From Malacoraja senta (taxonomy: Eukaryota), in contig CM075987.1 of the NCBI GenBank assembly GCA_038087875.1, positions 25,298,001 to 25,362,000 of the forward strand: a stretch of DNA of 64,000 nt. The letters run 5' to 3'. Made by a program: the position numbers and the translations under genes. The notes under the pieces are model-generated. The model saw only the letters and a list, made by a program, of their open reading frames with translations, did not search any database and was not told the DNA's origin. This document shows, piece by piece, positions 1,396 through 52,263 of the stretch (its first letter is position 1; each line of letters starts with the position of its first letter).

Positions 1396-1581
1396 CTTCT
1401 TCTTCTTTTTGTGTCCAAATGTTGACCTCGCTGTCATCGTCCGTCCTGAAAAGGACACGAGCTTCCGGCGACAATCAGTGGGAGCCATCACTTGTCGCAA
1501 TAGATGATGGTGGTAGCAGAATTAGCTCGGGATACTTCCAGTTTCCAGCCCCGTGACGTGGACGCTTCTGCTATGGGGCCC
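1396..1581 (-). mobile_element. Short retroposon with a 5' HDV-like ribozyme and (GAA)n tail (type B)
   Basis: Minus strand starts GGGCCCC-A-TAGCAGAA and ends ggacacaaaaagaagaagaag. It interrupts a Rex1-like 3' UTR. No clear TSD. Confidence 0.75.
1514..1581 (-). ncRNA. HDV-like (CPEB3-like) self-cleaving ribozyme motif
   Basis: P1 GGCCCC/GGGGCU; P2 UAGCAGAA/UUCUGCUA; P3 GCG/CAC (1 mismatch); L3 UCCACGU; GG for P1.1; J4/2 CUAA. Confidence 0.85.
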
Positions 1582-1956
1582 GATGGGCACGCAACAAAAA
1601 GCTTTTCATTGCACCTAAAGCATTAAAACTAAAACTAATCTAAACTAGACTAACATACTCCAGCTTTAGATTCTTCTGGTATGGGGAAAAGATTTCAGCT
1701 GCCTACCAGATCTATGCCTCTCATAATTTAGATAGCAGGGAGATAGATGTTGCACTAACAAAAATACAAAGCTGCGATCATTCAAACGTTGTTGAGGTAG
1801 GTTTATGGGGAGCATGCAATATAAGTCTCAAACAAAACATATAAGAGGAATTTAAAAACCCCCCACAGTGAATGGGAAACTGTGAAAGGCCCATTCTTCT
1901 TCTTTTACAGACACGTCGTACGTGCAAGGTTGCTCGTGAAAATCAATGTGATGATC

Positions 1957-2815
1957 CAGTAATCTCTCATTATAACGGAGCATAGAGGGGGCGAAATGGT
2001 GTCTGTTATTGCCGATTGTCTGCTATAACCAAGTGTAATATGTGGCGTTTCATGTGTAGAGACCCTACAATAACATTTATTGTGAGCAAGAGCTGCACTG
2101 AAAGCTGAAACATAAGTTCATAAGTTATAGGAGCAGAATTAGGCCATTCGGCCCATCAAGTCTATCATTCAATCATGGCTGATCTATCTCTCCCTCCTAA
2201 CCCCATTCTCCTGCCTTCTCCCCACAACCCCTTGACACCCGTACTAATCACGAAACTATCTATTGGCCCTGTCCCACTGTACGAGTTCATTCAAGTGCTC
2301 TCCCGGGTTTAAAAAAAAAATCAGACTCGTGGTAAGCACGTGGAATGAACGTAGCGGGTACGTCGGAGCTCGGGGACGTCTCTTAGCGGCTCGTAACGCT
2401 AACGGCAGGTACTCGGGAAGACTCGCTAACGGCAGGTAAGCTCGGGAAGACTCGTGAAGATTTTTCAACATGTTGAAAAATGTCCACGAGAGCCCCGAGT
2501 ACCGACGAGCGGCCATTACCGTAAATCTCCGAGTTCGAATCAGGGCAAACTCGGGGAGAACTCTTGAATGAACTCGTACAGTGGGACAGGGCTTTATCTC
2601 TGCCATTAGAATATCCATTGACTTGGCCTCCACAGCCTTCTGTGGCAATGAATTCCACCGATTCACCACCCTCTGACTAAAGAAATTCCTCTTCATCTCC
2701 TTCCTAAAGGTGCGTCCTTTAATTCTGAGGCTGTGCCCTCTGGTCCTAGACTCTCCCACTAGTGGAAACAACCAAAATTTGTTGTAAAGAGGTCTGTAAA
2801 AACGAGGGTTTACTG
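1957..2815. mobile_element. Degenerate Tc1/mariner (Tigger-like) non-autonomous element containing nested CR1 and Harbinger-like insertions
   Basis: Imperfect terminal inverted repeats cagtaatctctcattataacgg and (reverse complement) cagtaaaccctcgtttttacag; TA TSD not preserved. Confidence 0.45.
2264..2594. mobile_element. PIF/Harbinger-like MITE
   Basis: Long TIRs gccctgtcccactgtacgagttcattcaag / cttgaatgaactcgtacagtgggacagggc; inserted into a CR1 3' end at a T/A-rich site. Confidence 0.75.
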
Positions 2816-3125
2816 TTATAGCAAAGCTCTGACAATCAGGACCAAAGGGCAAGTATGTTTTGGATTAAATGGTGGCTTGGGTGATATGCGCAGTGGACTG
2901 ACATAAAATACATACTTTTGTAGAGGATGTGTTCTTAGAAAATATTTAGTAAAATAAAAAAGCCAGGCACATTCTCTTCGGGATACTTTGGTACGATGGA
3001 AGGGAACTGATGTGCCAATTGTGTAGCACAAATAAAGATTTGGAAATCATGGACACATATCCGAAAGAGTCGACGGCATTATAGTGAAGAGATGTCAGTT
3101 GATCGTTCATATTACAGTCAGCCGT

Positions 3126-50300: not shown

Positions 50301-52093
50301 AACGTACAAACTCCGTACAGACAGCACCCGTGGTCGGGATCGAACCTGGGTCTCTGGTGCTGTCTGTGTGGAGTTTGCACGATCTCCCTGTGACTGCGCG
50401 GGTTTCTTCTAGGTGCTCCTGTTTCCTCGCACATCCCAACGATGTGCGGGCTTGTAGGATCATTTAAACTCGGACTCTTGTTTTTGAGTAAACCCGGCCT
50501 CTTGTTACCATGTGCAACAGATTTCCACTGTCCCTTATTCTGTTTAGCTCTTACAAATATAGTTTAGTTTAGTTTAGAGATACAGAACGGAAATAGGCCC
50601 ACCGTGCCGACCAGTGGTCCCCGCACACTAACACTATCTTGCACATTAGGGACAACTTAGAATTTTTACCGAAGCCAACGAACCCGTATGTCTTTGGAGT
50701 GCGGGAGGAAACCAGAGCACCCGGAGAAAACCCGCGTGGTCACCGAGAGAATGTACAAACTCTGGGCAGACAGAACTTGTAGTCAGGGTCGAAATCAGGT
50801 CACTGGCGCTGTAAGGCAGCAACTCTACCGCTGCGCCACCGTGCCGCCCCTAGCAACTCCCTATAAATGGACCCCTATAATTCCCCCGCCCCCCCCCATT
50901 GTGCAGGGAACTGGATGCGAAAGTTGGACGAGGTAGAACCAGGGCGATGGATGGTTGAAGTTGACTCGTTGGGCCAAATGGCCTCTTTCCATGCTGCATC
51001 TTTCGATTCACTCAATCAAATGGCGAGGAACTGTAGATACTAGTTTACACTGAAGATAGATATAAAAAGCTGGAGTAACTCAGCGGGACAGGCAGCATCT
51101 CTGGAGAGAAGGAATGGGTGACGCTTCAGGTCGAGACCCTTTTCTGGGACTGTGATCCAGTGTGAAAATGGAACAGTGGCCTGATGTCTTGTGTGGAAAG
51201 CGAGAGTTCTGGAAAGCCTGTTAGATGAGGCAGAAGCAGGATTAGAATATCCCTTGGCCAATTATGTACTCGTTCAACGAATGCTCCTTTAATCTCATGA
51301 GTTCACTTTCACTAACAAGTCTTTTATGCAGTACTTAATCAAAAGCCTTATGAAAATCAAAAATCGCACATGAGCCACACTACCCTCATCAGCGCTGTCA
51401 ATTACTCCAACAATAAACTCAAATCAATTTAGTCTAACGCAATTTCCTTCAACAGGTCCCGCAGGCTTTTGTCTATTATGCTGTGGTCTGGAAATTCATT
51501 GGATCAACGCTGCTAAAACAAATTTGCTCAGATGAATATCATACAACGTGCTGTTTTACAGATGAATGAATGGGTAAATACTTTATTGCCACAAGCGAGA
51601 AGTCACAGCGAAATGTTTTGTTTGCGCACCCAAGGTATGTAAATAGTCACCACATAGAGGGCGGGGACAAAGGTACAAAGTGTACACAGTATCCGCCCCA
51701 GGTCCCCCTTTGTAACCCCCCCTCCCTCAACCCTCTGCCCCCCCCCACACACCGGGTCCCCATTGTCTATTGGTCTTCCCCCCACCCTCCCTCATGGCAA
51801 TCCCTCCTTTCAGCAAAAACGTTGTCAGTTGAAAGGTTCACTTGCTGTTTAGAAACATCGAAACATAGAAAATATGTGCAGGAGGAGGCCATTCGGCCCT
51901 TCGAGCCAGCACCGCCATTCATTGTGATCATGGCTGATCGTCCCCTATCAATAACCCGTGCCTGCCTTCTCCCCATATCCCTTGACTCCACTAGCCCCTA
52001 GAGCTCTATCTAACTCTCTCTTAAATCCATCCAGTGACTTGGCCTCCATTGCCCTCTGTGGCAGGGAATTCCAGGGAATTCCAGTTTAGGTTA

Positions 52094-52186
52094 GGGATGC
52101 AAGCAGAAGCCCCCACGTGGCGCATCCCAAGCAATGCTGACGACAGAAACTGTACCACAGTGACTGACTGAAGTCGCCAATTCTGC
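52094..52186 (+). ncRNA. HDV-like ribozyme motif with extended P4, P1.1 degenerate
   Basis: P1 GGGAUGC/GCAUCCC; P2 GCAGAA/UUCUGC; P3 GCC/GGC; L3 CCCACGU; CGAC..GUCG in P4; J4/2 CCAA. Confidence 0.75.
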
Positions 52187-52263
52187 AACCACCGACCGTC
52201 AACCGTCACTGACCGACCGGAAAGACGTGATATAGAAGATGGCTGGACACGATGAAGAAGAAG
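52094..52263 (+). mobile_element. Ribozyme-headed short retroposon (type D) with (GAA)n tail
   Basis: TSD-like agt(t/a)taggtt at 52083-52092 and 52262-52271; ends ggacacgatgaagaagaag. Confidence 0.75.

What the first reader, a model, noticed from the sequence alone, without database searches (positions are those of the whole stretch)
1396..52263. A class of tiny ribozyme-headed retroposons: six copies, four sequence types, in 64 kb
Seen: elements at 1396-1581(-), 26617-27374(-), 33559-33702(-), 40556-40689(+), 44672-44807(+) and 52094-52263(+). All begin at G1 of an HDV-like nested double pseudoknot (P1-P2-P3-L3 YYCWCGU-P1'-P4-J4/2-P2'). All are about 135-190 bp, have no ORF and no pol III A/B boxes. 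Five end in (GAA)n and five have 10-13 bp TSDs. The P1/P2/P3 sequences differ between types but pairing is kept. Established: HDV-like ribozymes process the 5' ends of R2, RTE and some other non-LTR retrotransposons, and short-repeat tails are typical of RTE-clade elements. Inference: these are promoter-less SINE-like elements that self-cleave out of host transcripts and are copied by an RTE-type LINE. I do not know of a description of such a class in cartilaginous fish, but could not search.
Basis: partly seen in the sequence, partly recalled or inferred. Interest (0 to 1): 0.95.

Follow-up and report, generated by a model that had tools for sequence, protein, structure and literature searches.

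The report
Ribozyme-headed mini-retroposons riding RTE-like LINEs
A skate-like genome carries tens of thousands of tiny mobile elements that begin exactly at the cut site of an HDV/CPEB3-type self-cleaving RNA fold and borrow the copying machinery of a LINE that has the same head and tail, and these heads look like relatives of the mammalian CPEB3 ribozyme.

Summary
A covariance model run unfiltered over the window finds the six elements and nothing else. They fall into four families, with 396 to 2860 first-look candidates each in the 1.94 Gb genome. Target-site duplications abut G1 in 81 of 103 copies against 3 of 103 in a control. P1, P2 and P3 covary across about ten head types, and the catalytic C and the L3 cytosines are nearly invariant. 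No pol III boxes or tRNA were found.

The predicted partner exists. It is a 3.1 kb RTE-like LINE (endonuclease plus reverse transcriptase) with some open ~1010-aa frames. It starts at G1 of the same ribozyme and ends in GACACGAAAA(GAA)n. Two further lineages show the same design.

Many heads, including the LINE's, pass Rfam's curated cut-off for the "mammalian" CPEB3 ribozyme. In the whole genome 39 of 59 scored candidates pass, the best at 64 bits.

Self-cleavage and promoter-less co-transcription are inferred, not shown. The kind is known (R2 SIDEs, NARTc, ribozyme-terminated RTEs). This is a new high-copy vertebrate variant, with a possible bearing on the origin of CPEB3.

The parts
1396..1580 (-). 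Type B element. The HDV/CPEB3-like ribozyme head is 1514-1580 (G1 = 1580), followed by the body, the 3' box GGACAC and (GAA)3 at 1397-1405.
   Evidence: R1 52.8 bits. RF00622 32.1 bits, E 1.2e-4, below the gathering score of 35 because P3 has decayed from CGC to CAC. Family copies score 37.5-41.2 bits. 2022 first-look candidates in the genome.
26617..27374 (-). Type C element (about 150 bp) split by a nested insertion. The ribozyme head is 27287-27374 (G1 = 27374). The tail part is 26617-26671.
   Evidence: R1 35.2 bits. RF00622 27.7 bits. Compared with eight intact copies, L091-L098. 792 first-look candidates. P2' has decayed in this copy.
26672..27283 (-). Nested poly(A)-tailed 3' fragment of an L1-like LINE inside the type C copy, flanked by the 13-bp duplication AACATGTTGGACG. 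It is not part of the class.
   Evidence: Direct reading against the intact type C copies. Its sequence resembles the 3' end of the L1-like LINE at 29342-33372.
33558..33702 (-). Type A element. The minimal, P4-less ribozyme head is 33649-33702 (G1 = 33702). A 3' stem-loop domain follows, then (GAA)5 at 33557-33571.
   Evidence: R1 55.1 bits. TSD AAGTCCAATGTCC with 1-2 extra bases at the 5' junction. The P1' variant CCGCCCU keeps pairing through U.G.
40556..40691 (+). Type A element inserted into the 3' end of a CR1-like LINE. The head is 40556-40609 and the tail is 40677-40691.
   Evidence: R1 56.7 bits. TSD AGATAGCG(G/A)A. 2860 first-look candidates for this query, and all 40 scored matches start at query position 1-3.
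44672..44812 (+). Type A element. The head is 44672-44725 and the tail is 44801-44812.
   Evidence: R1 61.4 bits. TSD GAAGCTGGT(G).
52094..52262 (+). Type D element. The ribozyme head with a long P4 domain is 52094-52186. The 3' box is GGACACGA and (GAA)3 lies at 52254-52262.
   Evidence: R1 42.3 bits. Family copies score 27.3-30.0 bits against RF00622. 396 first-look candidates, with scored copies 95-97% identical to the query.

Best explanation
These are non-autonomous non-LTR retroposons of about 135-195 nt. They consist of three parts: a 5' HDV/CPEB3-type self-cleaving ribozyme, a family-specific structured body, and the very short 3' UTR of an RTE-like LINE, which is a GAC(A/T)CGA box plus a (GAA)n or related microsatellite.

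Proposed cycle:
1. A copy is transcribed as part of a longer host or neighbouring transcript. It has no pol III boxes. (Inferred.)
2. The ribozyme cuts 5' of G1, giving the RNA an exact 5' end. (Inferred from the fold, the invariant catalytic residues and the genomic 5' ends.)
3. The endonuclease-reverse transcriptase of the RTE-like LINE, which carries the same head and the same terminal box and tail, binds the 3' box and tail. It copies the RNA into a nicked target by target-primed reverse transcription. This produces TSDs of about 10-12 bp that abut G1. (The insertion signatures are shown. The trans-mobilisation is inferred from the shared termini.)

The LINE uses the same ribozyme to free its own RNA. 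This makes the short elements the RTE counterpart of the R2 SIDEs.
For: Fold. On 61 distinct rows from about ten head types, P1 is 93.4% paired with 5 of 7 pairs changed on both sides. P2, the pseudoknot helix that was not in the model used for aligning, is 94.8% paired with 6 of 7. P3 is 93.4% paired with 2 of 3. Overall 87.1% of cells are paired, against 33-44% when partners are slid. The covariation score is 0.558 against at most 0.108 slid, and 0 of 500 shuffles reach it.

Catalytic core. The J4/2 C is present in 58 of 61 rows and the J1/4 G in 58 of 61. L3 positions C3, C5 and U7 are present in 61 of 61, and the J4/2 AA in 59-61 of 61.

Curated model. RF00622 scores at or above its gathering score in 3 of 3 type B copies, in 11 of 11 further loci (37-64 bits) and in 39 of 59 candidates scored genome-wide. 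It rings in 0 of 14 control genomes.

5' ends. All 40 scored matches of each of the four queries start at query position 1-3. TSDs abut G1 in 81 of 103 copies against 3 of 103 in the control. With stricter rules, 68 of 96 have offset 0, 7 have an offset of 1-4 nt and 21 have none. Of copies not selected by the search, 6 of 6 in the window and 4 of 6 bystanders start at G1.

Partner. A full LINE copy has head, ORF, box, tail and TSD. It has a 25-nt 3' UTR. Open frames of 1008 and 1014 aa without stops exist, and there are many 5'-truncated copies. Its last 19 nt are 100% identical to family B. Lineages 2 and 3 have their own heads and end in GGACTCGA or GGACACGA plus tail, matching families E, B and D. 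A metagenomic relative at 51% amino-acid identity has the same head and the GACACGA box with an (ATC)n tail.

Not pol III SINEs.
Against: No biochemical or RNA evidence was obtained. Cleavage at G1 in vivo and the absence of a promoter are therefore untested.

Types C (consensus), D and E close P1 with G1-C rather than the usual G1.U. Types A and E have almost no P4. Activity of these variants is an extrapolation.

Type A gets no Rfam hit in 0 of 2 copies. Types C and D stay below the RF00622 cut-off at 24.5-30 bits.

Apart from 18-36 nt of ribozyme core and the terminal 17-19 nt, the bodies of the short elements show no similarity to the three LINE lineages sampled. The type A tail box (CCATACGCA) has no matched LINE.

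The best-scoring copies are biased towards full length. 2 of 6 bystander copies (both type B) are 5'-truncated.

The covariation counts treat related copies as rows. There are about ten independent head types, not 61.
Confidence: 0.85

Rival explanations
1. The short elements are plain internal-deletion derivatives (SIDEs) of RTE-like LINE lineages that I did not sample. They would then be a by-product of each LINE family rather than a separate class.
For: The head and the whole (tiny) 3' UTR are shared with LINEs. The genome holds several RTE-like lineages at 50-57% identity. Families B, C and D share patches of body sequence with one another (direct reading). 'ACCAC' after P2' is common to LINE lineage 3 and families B, D and E.
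Against: There is no body similarity to any of three sampled LINE lineages beyond the ribozyme core and the terminal 17-19 nt. Type A has a distinct P2, a distinct tail box and an 11-bp stem-loop body with no LINE counterpart found. Only three lineages were sampled, so this is weak evidence.
Confidence: 0.25
2. The heads are not active ribozymes in these elements. They serve as a protein-binding or translation module, or as an internal promoter at the DNA level (as Pr77 does in L1Tc). The 5' end at G1 would then reflect transcription initiation or the end of reverse transcription, not cleavage.
For: No cleavage data exist. In L1Tc the same 77 nt are both promoter and ribozyme (PMC3383444, abstract in the listing). 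R2 protein binds the 5' pseudoknot (PMC6765202, passage). Some families have G1-C or lack P4.
Against: The catalytic C, the J4/2 AA, the L3 cytosines and the J1/4 G are kept in 58-61 of 61 rows. Meanwhile the helices change by compensation. That is the pattern expected of selection for the catalytic fold. Many heads pass the curated RF00622 threshold. G1 is exactly the position that the fold predicts for scission.
Confidence: 0.1
3. They are ordinary pol III SINEs (tRNA, 5S or 7SL heads), or chance look-alikes of the HDV fold.
For: Their size, copy number, TSDs and LINE-type tails are SINE-like.
Against: The window has 0 tRNA genes and 0 Rfam gathering hits. The best A/B-box matches have 2-4 mismatches, and type B has an internal TTTT. 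Chance is excluded by the controls.
Confidence: 0.02

Closest known systems
R2 SIDEs (short internally deleted elements) of Drosophila
   Same: These are non-autonomous elements made of the LINE's 5' HDV-like ribozyme plus sequences matching the LINE's 3' UTR. They are processed from a co-transcript and copied in trans by the LINE protein (PMC3774820, passages; PMC3414825, abstract).
   Different: SIDEs sit in 28S rDNA, are few, and are clear deletion derivatives of R2, which uses a restriction-like endonuclease. The elements here are dispersed and number thousands per family. They use an AP-endonuclease RTE-like LINE, occur in a vertebrate, and have bodies unrelated to the sampled LINEs.
RTE-clade LINEs with 5' HDV-like ribozymes (Ruminski et al. 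2011, J Biol Chem)
   Same: The autonomous partner has a single ORF with endonuclease and RT and a very short 3' UTR ending in a simple repeat, which are features of RTE (PMC2887409, abstract). Ribozyme cleavage at the 5' junction is reported for RTE (PMC3774820, passage; PMC6765202, passage).
   Different: I could not read Ruminski 2011 (not held). As I recall its abstract, it assigns HDV-like ribozymes to long elements and hammerheads to short ones. Here HDV-like heads sit on short elements at high copy number. Placement of this LINE in the RTE clade rests on its architecture, not on a tree.
Mammalian CPEB3 ribozyme (Rfam RF00622)
   Same: The fold is the same and the sequence is strikingly close. 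The LINE head scores 61-64 bits and families B and E-J score 37-60 bits, against a gathering score of 35. A metagenomic RTE-relative head matches the model consensus at 35 of 37 positions from P1 to P1' and at 10 of 11 positions in J4/2-P2'.
   Different: CPEB3 is a single conserved intronic locus in mammals. It is stated not to have been found outside mammals (PMC8233481, passage). The elements here are dispersed repeats in a skate-like genome, tied to retrotransposition.
L1Tc / NARTc of Trypanosoma cruzi
   Same: A LINE and its non-autonomous partner share a 5' HDV-like ribozyme that frees the RNA from co-transcripts (PMC3185411 and PMC3383444, abstracts).
   Different: These belong to a different LINE clade (ingi/L1Tc), occur in a protist with polycistronic transcription, and the head also acts as a promoter.
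Minimal (P4-less) HDV-like ribozymes and theta ribozymes
   Same: Types A and E replace P4 with a 5-7 nt linker, as minimal drzs do (PMC10879173, passage).
   Different: That paper reports nearly 99% of theta ribozyme and minimal drz sequences confined to bacteriophages. The ones here head a vertebrate retroposon with at least 2860 candidate copies.
Hammerhead-bearing SINE-like elements (Schistosoma Sm-alpha) and retrozymes
   Same: They are short non-autonomous retroelements that rely on an embedded self-cleaving ribozyme (PMC6765202, passage).
   Different: They use a different ribozyme class, have tandem or circular-RNA life cycles and involve pol III. Here there is a single 5' HDV-like ribozyme and the insertions are dispersed with TSDs.

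Membership tests
HDV-like (delta) self-cleaving ribozymes | Nested double pseudoknot: P1 and P2 crossing, P3 inside P1, with P1' directly after P3' | tested here: met
   P1 is 93.4% paired, P2 94.8% and P3 93.4%. 13 of 17 pairs in these three helices change on both sides. The slid controls give 33-44% paired.
HDV-like (delta) self-cleaving ribozymes | Catalytic cytosine at the start of J4/2, followed by purines; conserved L3 cytosines; a J1/4 G for P1.1 | tested here: met
   C in 58 of 61 rows, AA in 59-61 of 61, L3 C3 and C5 in 61 of 61, J1/4 G in 58 of 61.
HDV-like (delta) self-cleaving ribozymes | G1.U wobble closing P1 at the cleavage site | tested here: inconclusive
   pair 1-37: GU 22, GC 14, AU 2, other 7, gap 16. 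Families A and B and the LINE heads have G.U. Families C (consensus), D and E have G-C.
HDV-like (delta) self-cleaving ribozymes | Self-scission 5' of G1 | not testable with these tools
   Only indirect evidence: genomic 5' ends and TSDs abut G1.
Rfam RF00622 CPEB3 ribozyme | Bit score at or above the curated gathering score (35) | tested here: met
   Met by 3 of 3 type B copies, by 11 of 11 loci of head types E-J and the LINE, and by 39 of 59 candidates scored genome-wide. Not met by the window's own B and C copies (32.1 and 27.7 bits), by types C and D (24.5-30 bits) or by type A (no hit).
Rfam RF00622 CPEB3 ribozyme | Single conserved locus in an intron of the CPEB3 gene of mammals | tested here: not met
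   The hits are dispersed repeats on many contigs of a batoid genome. This is the same sequence family by score, but not the CPEB3 locus.
Canonical SINE (pol III) | Head derived from tRNA, 5S or 7SL with internal A and B boxes | tested here: not met
   The box motifs are recalled from memory.
SIDE-type non-autonomous partner of a ribozyme-terminated LINE | 5' ribozyme of the same kind as the LINE's | tested here: met
SIDE-type non-autonomous partner of a ribozyme-terminated LINE | 3' end identical to the LINE's 3' UTR | tested here: met
   The last 19 nt of family B are 100% identical to LINE lineage 1. The LINE 3' UTR is only about 25 nt plus tail. Families D and E and B variants match lineages 1, 3 and 2 in the box. 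No LINE was found for the type A box.
SIDE-type non-autonomous partner of a ribozyme-terminated LINE | Body derived from the LINE by internal deletion | tested here: not met
   No body similarity to three LINE lineages. Other lineages were not sampled.
RTE clade of non-LTR retrotransposons (the partner LINE) | Single ORF with AP-endonuclease and RT, about 3.1-3.3 kb, very short 3' UTR ending in a simple repeat | tested here: met
   The features are as listed in the abstract of PMC2887409.
RTE clade of non-LTR retrotransposons (the partner LINE) | Phylogenetic placement of the RT within RTE reference sequences | not tested
   No named RTE references were at hand. Homologues at 50-63% identity in aphids, moths, sea urchin, lancelet, anole and fish carry no clade names.

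The most novel reading that the evidence does not exclude
The mammalian CPEB3 ribozyme is not a mammalian invention. It would be a domesticated 5' head of this RTE-type LINE/mini-retroposon lineage, which inserted into a CPEB3 intron in an early mammal.

The skate elements and the metagenomic RTE relative supply the outgroups that CPEB3 studies say are missing. Their P1 and P2 sequences are free to vary in this fold, yet they match the CPEB3 model consensus almost base for base in some lineages. This argues for common descent rather than convergence.

A second strand: types A and E show that P4-less 'minimal' HDV-like ribozymes have a eukaryotic home and a job.
Probability: 0.55. Interest if true: 0.85.

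Novelty: new variant of a known kind. Interest (0 to 1): 0.72.

Why it matters
Ribozyme-terminated LINEs and a few non-autonomous riders are known from insects and trypanosomes. Here the same trick supports whole families of SINE-sized elements in a vertebrate. My rough estimate is 30,000 to 60,000 head-bearing copies. These elements apparently need neither their own promoter nor a pol III head, which widens the definition of what a SINE-like element can be built from.

The genome offers a natural mutational series of about ten HDV-like ribozymes, including P4-less and G1-C variants, with thousands of copies each. This is ready material for structure-function work.

It also ties Rfam's 'mammalian' CPEB3 ribozyme model to retrotransposon heads. 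That turns the open question of where the CPEB3 ribozyme, and by extension HDV-type ribozymes in vertebrates, came from into a testable phylogenetic problem.

A practical point: genome annotators using RF00622 will get tens of thousands of hits in such genomes.

Tried and rejected
RNA evidence. The look-up of sequencing runs listed no RNA holder on record, and every run is kept as contigs only. There is therefore no read-level evidence for or against cleavage, and no test of empty sites in relatives.

Earlier findings of the scan: three look-ups returned nothing.

Partner LINE inside the window: none. The only (GAA)n tails in the window are those of the elements or lie in unrelated sequence. 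The window's LINEs are L1-like with poly(A) and CR1-like with (ATGTTTCT)n tails.

A shared P4 helix across all families is rejected. The four pairs as drawn are only 49.5% paired, so P4 is family-specific or absent.

Simple internal-deletion origin from the three sampled LINEs finds no body similarity.

Long 5' extensions from uncleaved read-through are not seen. The stricter TSD search found offsets of only 0-4 nt. The window's B copy, with a 7-bp match 21 nt upstream, remains unexplained.

Rfam in gathering mode on the window gives 0 hits. The window's own B and C copies are decayed and fall just under the cut-off.

Papers wanted but not held: Ruminski 2011, Webb 2009 and Webb & Luptak 2011. 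There was no access to Dfam or Repbase, so an existing repeat-library entry cannot be excluded.

In the metagenomic RTE relatives, R1 hit 5 of 80 loci. By my count from the table, about 13 loci carry enough 5' sequence to be testable. The others may have diverged or different ribozymes.

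
Full report
**What is in the window**

I read the six stretches. They form four sequence types. Type A is at 33558-33702(-), 40556-40691(+) and 44672-44812(+). Type B is at 1396-1580(-), type C at 26617-27374(-) and type D at 52094-52262(+).

Each starts with G-rich P1, then P2, a 3-bp P3, a 7-nt loop YYCWCGU, P3', P1', a variable P4 region, C-N-A-A and P2'. 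This is the order of an HDV-like double pseudoknot.

I built a covariance model (R1) from 17 heads of about ten types (alignment A2). I ran it without filters over both strands of the window. It gave eight matches at E<=1. Six are these elements (E 2.3e-14 to 1.8e-7) and two are noise (E 0.59 and 0.64). Five of the six window copies were in the seed alignment. The sixth (type C) was not, and was still found at 35.2 bits.

**Corrections to the observation**

G1 of the B copy is 1580.

The 758-bp type C 'element' is a ~150-bp element. It is interrupted at about 26672-27283 by a poly(A)-tailed LINE 3' fragment with a 13-bp duplication. Comparison with eight intact copies shows this. Intact type C copies end in (CGAA/GAAC)n.

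The other five window copies end in (GAA)3-5.

**They are mobile, abundant and start at G1**

The window lies in a 1.94 Gb assembly. Searching the assembly gave first-look candidates of 2860 (A), 2022 (B), 396 (D) and 792 (C head). Forty candidates were scored each time. The tool calls these counts lower bounds. All 40 scored matches of each query begin at query position 1-3.

In 103 copies with flanks, a duplication of the 16 nt upstream, ending exactly at the base before G1, recurs just after the tail in 81. A control using 16 nt taken 20 nt further upstream gives 3 of 103. Under stricter rules, 68 of 96 copies have a TSD at offset 0, 7 at an offset of 1-4 nt and 21 none.

The best-scoring copies are biased towards full length. 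Among copies that the searches did not select, all 6 window copies start at G1. So do 4 of the 6 bystander copies found in the flanks of other loci. The other two bystanders (type B) are truncated at positions 21 and 47.

Median pairwise identity within families is 95.4-97.7%, so the sampled copies are young.

The flanks hold four head-bearing bystanders in about 270 kb. With the six copies in the 64-kb window, this suggests roughly 30,000-60,000 head-bearing copies genome-wide. This is a small-number estimate.

**They are not pol III SINEs**

ARAGORN finds no tRNA in the window. Rfam in gathering mode finds nothing. The best A- and B-box matches have 2-4 mismatches, and type B contains TTTT internally (box motifs recalled).

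**The fold is supported by covariation**

R1 found 76 heads in 68 sources, 61 of them distinct. On that alignment I counted the pairs of P1, P2, P3 and a basal P4, writing P2 as a pseudoknot.

- P1: 93.4% paired, 5 of 7 pairs changed on both sides.
- P2: 94.8% paired, 6 of 7. P2 was not part of the model, so the alignment could not lean towards it.
- P3: 93.4% paired, 2 of 3.
- Whole structure: 87.1% paired, against 33-44% when the 3' partners are slid by 1-3 columns.
- Covariation score: 0.558, against at most 0.108 slid and 0.186 shuffled (0 of 500 shuffles reach it).
- P4 as drawn: only 49.5% paired. It is family-specific, and types A and E have almost none.

Examples of whole-helix replacement:

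| Helix | Pairings seen |
|---|---|
| P1 | GGGGUGG/CCACCCU, GGCCCC/GGGGCU, GGGGAUC/GAUCCCY, GGGAUGC/GCAUCCC |
| P2 | GAUUGCA/UGCAAUC, AGCAGAA/UUCUGCU, UGACAGAA/UUCUGUCA, GGAAAGA/UCUUUCC, GGUAGAA/UUCUACC, GAAGGA/UCCUUC |
| P3 | ACC/GGU, GCG/CGC, GCC/GGC |

The unpaired core is nearly invariant. The first J4/2 base is C in 58 of 61 rows, followed by AA in 59-61. L3 positions C3, C5 and U7 are present in 61 of 61. The G after P1' is present in 58 of 61.

A caveat: the rows are related copies. There are about ten independent head types, not 61.

**Rfam's CPEB3 model**

The window's B and C copies score 32.1 and 27.7 bits against RF00622 (gathering score 35). The B copy has a decayed P3.

Family copies do better:

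- 3 of 3 type B copies score 37.5-41.2 bits.
- 2 of 2 type D copies score 27.3-30.0 bits.
- 3 of 3 type C copies score 24.5-27.9 bits.
- 0 of 2 type A copies are hit.

Run over the whole genome, RF00622 gave about 102,000 first-look candidates, which the tool calls rough. Of these, 59 were scored. 51 matched at E<=0.001 and 39 were at or above the cut-off, the best at 64.2 bits. None of 14 control genomes rings. I fetched 14 of these places. Eleven were re-scanned and all 11 pass the gathering score, at 37-64 bits. No other HDV-type Rfam family comes close. One type D copy scores 24.8 bits against RF02682.

**The partner LINE**

Five of the 14 places (L099, L100, L105, L107, L112) are the 5' end of one element. 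It has a textbook ribozyme: P1 GGGGAUC/GAUCCCU, P2 GGUAGAA/UUCUACC, P3 GCG/CGC, L3 UUCACGU, an 8-bp P4 and J4/2 CGAA. An ORF follows that opens with an AP-endonuclease motif.

One full copy (L100+L113) is 3137 bp from G1 to the tail. It has a 12-bp TSD, a 940-aa frame, one stop and 88 more codons. Pfam finds Exo_endo_phos_2 and RVT_1.

In the genome there are 60 matches at up to 97% identity. They include frames of 1008 and 1014 aa without stops, and many 5'-truncated copies. By coordinates, at least ten of the top RF00622 hits lie just upstream of such ORF matches.

In an open-frame copy the ORF stops 25 nt before the tail. The 3' UTR is CCAACCAGCTTCAAAGACACGAAAA followed by (GAA)n.

[quoted passage not shown] Homologues at 50-63% identity are about 900-1000 aa long, sit on ~3.1-3.3 kb contigs and occur in aphids, moths, sea urchins, lancelet, anole and fish. 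I did not build a tree, so 'RTE-like' is an inference from architecture.

**Shared termini**

Family B shares its last 19 nt with this LINE at 100% identity, plus 18 nt of ribozyme core. Families D and E share 17-19 terminal nt at 88-89%.

Two further LINE lineages at 50-57% amino-acid identity were sampled at their ends.

- Lineage 2 starts at G1 of its own head (R1 22.4 bits, P3 ACC/GGU as in type A). It has the TSD TTCATTG. In four independent copies it ends ...ACGGACTCGAAGAAGA. This matches the box of family E (GGACTCGAUAAGAAG) and of some B variants.
- Lineage 3 has head type G (R1 47.7 bits). It ends ...AAGGACACGAAAGAA and has a 10-bp TSD.

The short elements thus carry both UTR modules of the LINEs: the ribozyme, and the tiny 3' UTR made of a GAC(A/T)CGA box plus a microsatellite. 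Their bodies show no similarity to the three sampled LINEs. No LINE was found for the type A tail box.

**Beyond this genome**

A profile of the LINE protein retrieved 80 metagenome loci. R1 hits 5 of them, all upstream of the ORF on the coding strand.

One family (L133-L135, 51% amino-acid identity) scores 69.2 bits with R1 and 55.6 bits with RF00622. From P1 to P1' it matches the RF00622 consensus at 35 of 37 positions, and in J4/2-P2' at 10 of 11. It has a TSD abutting G1 and ends GAGACACGA(ATC)n. The box is therefore conserved while the microsatellite differs.

Another relative has a head scoring 41.6 bits against RF02682 (cut-off 44).

**Host**

The CR1-like reverse transcriptase in the window is 91-95% identical to Leucoraja erinacea proteins and 76-87% identical to proteins of other rays and sharks. 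The host is a cartilaginous fish, probably a skate.

**How it most likely works**

- Shown: the anatomy, the insertion signatures, the covarying fold with an intact catalytic core, and a co-resident LINE with the same head, box and tail and with open frames.
- Inferred: (i) transcription as part of longer RNAs; (ii) self-scission 5' of G1, which sets the 5' end; (iii) recognition of the 3' box and tail by the LINE protein, and target-primed reverse transcription in trans.

Cleavage at the 5' junction is the reported role of HDV-like ribozymes in R2, R4, L1Tc and RTE (PMC3774820, passage; PMC6765202, passages).

I could get no RNA evidence.

**What is known and what is new**

Known:

- Ribozyme-terminated LINEs, including RTE.
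- NARTc.

Seven full-text searches found no description of such elements in cartilaginous fish, nor of RTE-type short elements with HDV-like heads. However, Ruminski 2011, Webb 2009 and Webb & Luptak 2011 are not held, and I had no Dfam or Repbase. I therefore rate it a new variant of a known kind.

Two side results may matter more.

- P4-less minimal HDV-like ribozymes are reported as almost confined to phages (PMC10879173), yet they head families A and E.

**Verdict**

Confidence in the retroposon-plus-partner model is 0.85. Catalysis awaits the bench.

Noticed in passing
window 26672-27283 (-): A poly(A)-tailed 3' fragment of an L1-like LINE is nested inside the type C copy and flanked by the 13-bp duplication AACATGTTGGACG. 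It dates the type C insertion as older than this L1 event.
   Followed up: partly
window 29342-33372 (+): A nearly full-length L1-like LINE: AP endonuclease, RVT_1 in pieces, zf-RVT, a long pyrimidine-rich 3' UTR and a poly(A) tail. The type A copy at 33558-33702 lies about 190 bp beyond its tail.
   Followed up: partly
window 18184-19490 (+) and 53830-54906 (-): CR1-like LINE 3' parts with (ATGTTTCT)n-type tails. The type A copy at 40556 sits inside the conserved 3' end of another such CR1 copy.
   Followed up: partly
window 15406-15528, 17586-17696, 49186-49332, 7397-7498; also L032:1756-1900: A family of ~100-150 nt perfect-hairpin repeats (GTAACTCAGCGGGACAGGCAGC...). It draws sub-threshold hits to plant and animal miRNA models. 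It looks like a MITE or an inverted-repeat element common in this genome.
   Followed up: no
window 61442-62350 (-): A 302-aa open frame with a weak GIY-YIG match (E 3.6e-4, below the cut-off). It may be a Penelope-like element remnant.
   Followed up: no
window 1581-1607 (-): The type B copy has no TSD abutting G1. A 7-bp match to the post-tail sequence (TGAAAAG) lies 21 nt upstream. This could be chance, or a copy made from an RNA with a short uncleaved 5' leader.
   Followed up: partly
type A nt 8-18 (e.g. window 40563-40573) and L115:201-211: There is an 11-nt identity (GAGATTGCAAC) between J1/2-P2 of the type A head and the 3' UTR of LINE lineage 2, just before its GGACTCGA box (E 0.09). 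It could be chance or a trace of template switching in the origin of type A.
   Followed up: no
just 3' of P2' in families B, D, E, H, J, LINE lineage 3 and L133: The motif ACCAC(C) directly follows P2' in many otherwise different heads, including the metagenomic RTE relative. It is not part of the standard HDV fold. It may be a helix extension or a protein-binding site.
   Followed up: no
L102:260-327 (-), L104:23-90 (+): Head type H has a P4 (CAGAUUCUGCAAGGAUUUG / CACAUUCUACAAGAAUCUG) that follows the RF00622 consensus P4 closely, as well as the core (51.4 and 47.7 bits). I did not determine what element it heads.
   Followed up: no
L133:814-886 and L133:3950-3990 (metagenome contig): An RTE relative from an unknown host has a head 35 of 37 identical to the RF00622 consensus over P1-P1'. 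Its TSD is CCGAGTCTT and its 3' end is GAGACACGA(ATC)n.
   Followed up: partly
window 5463-5735 (+): A (TG)n/(TA)n compound microsatellite that draws spurious mir-297-type hits.
   Followed up: no
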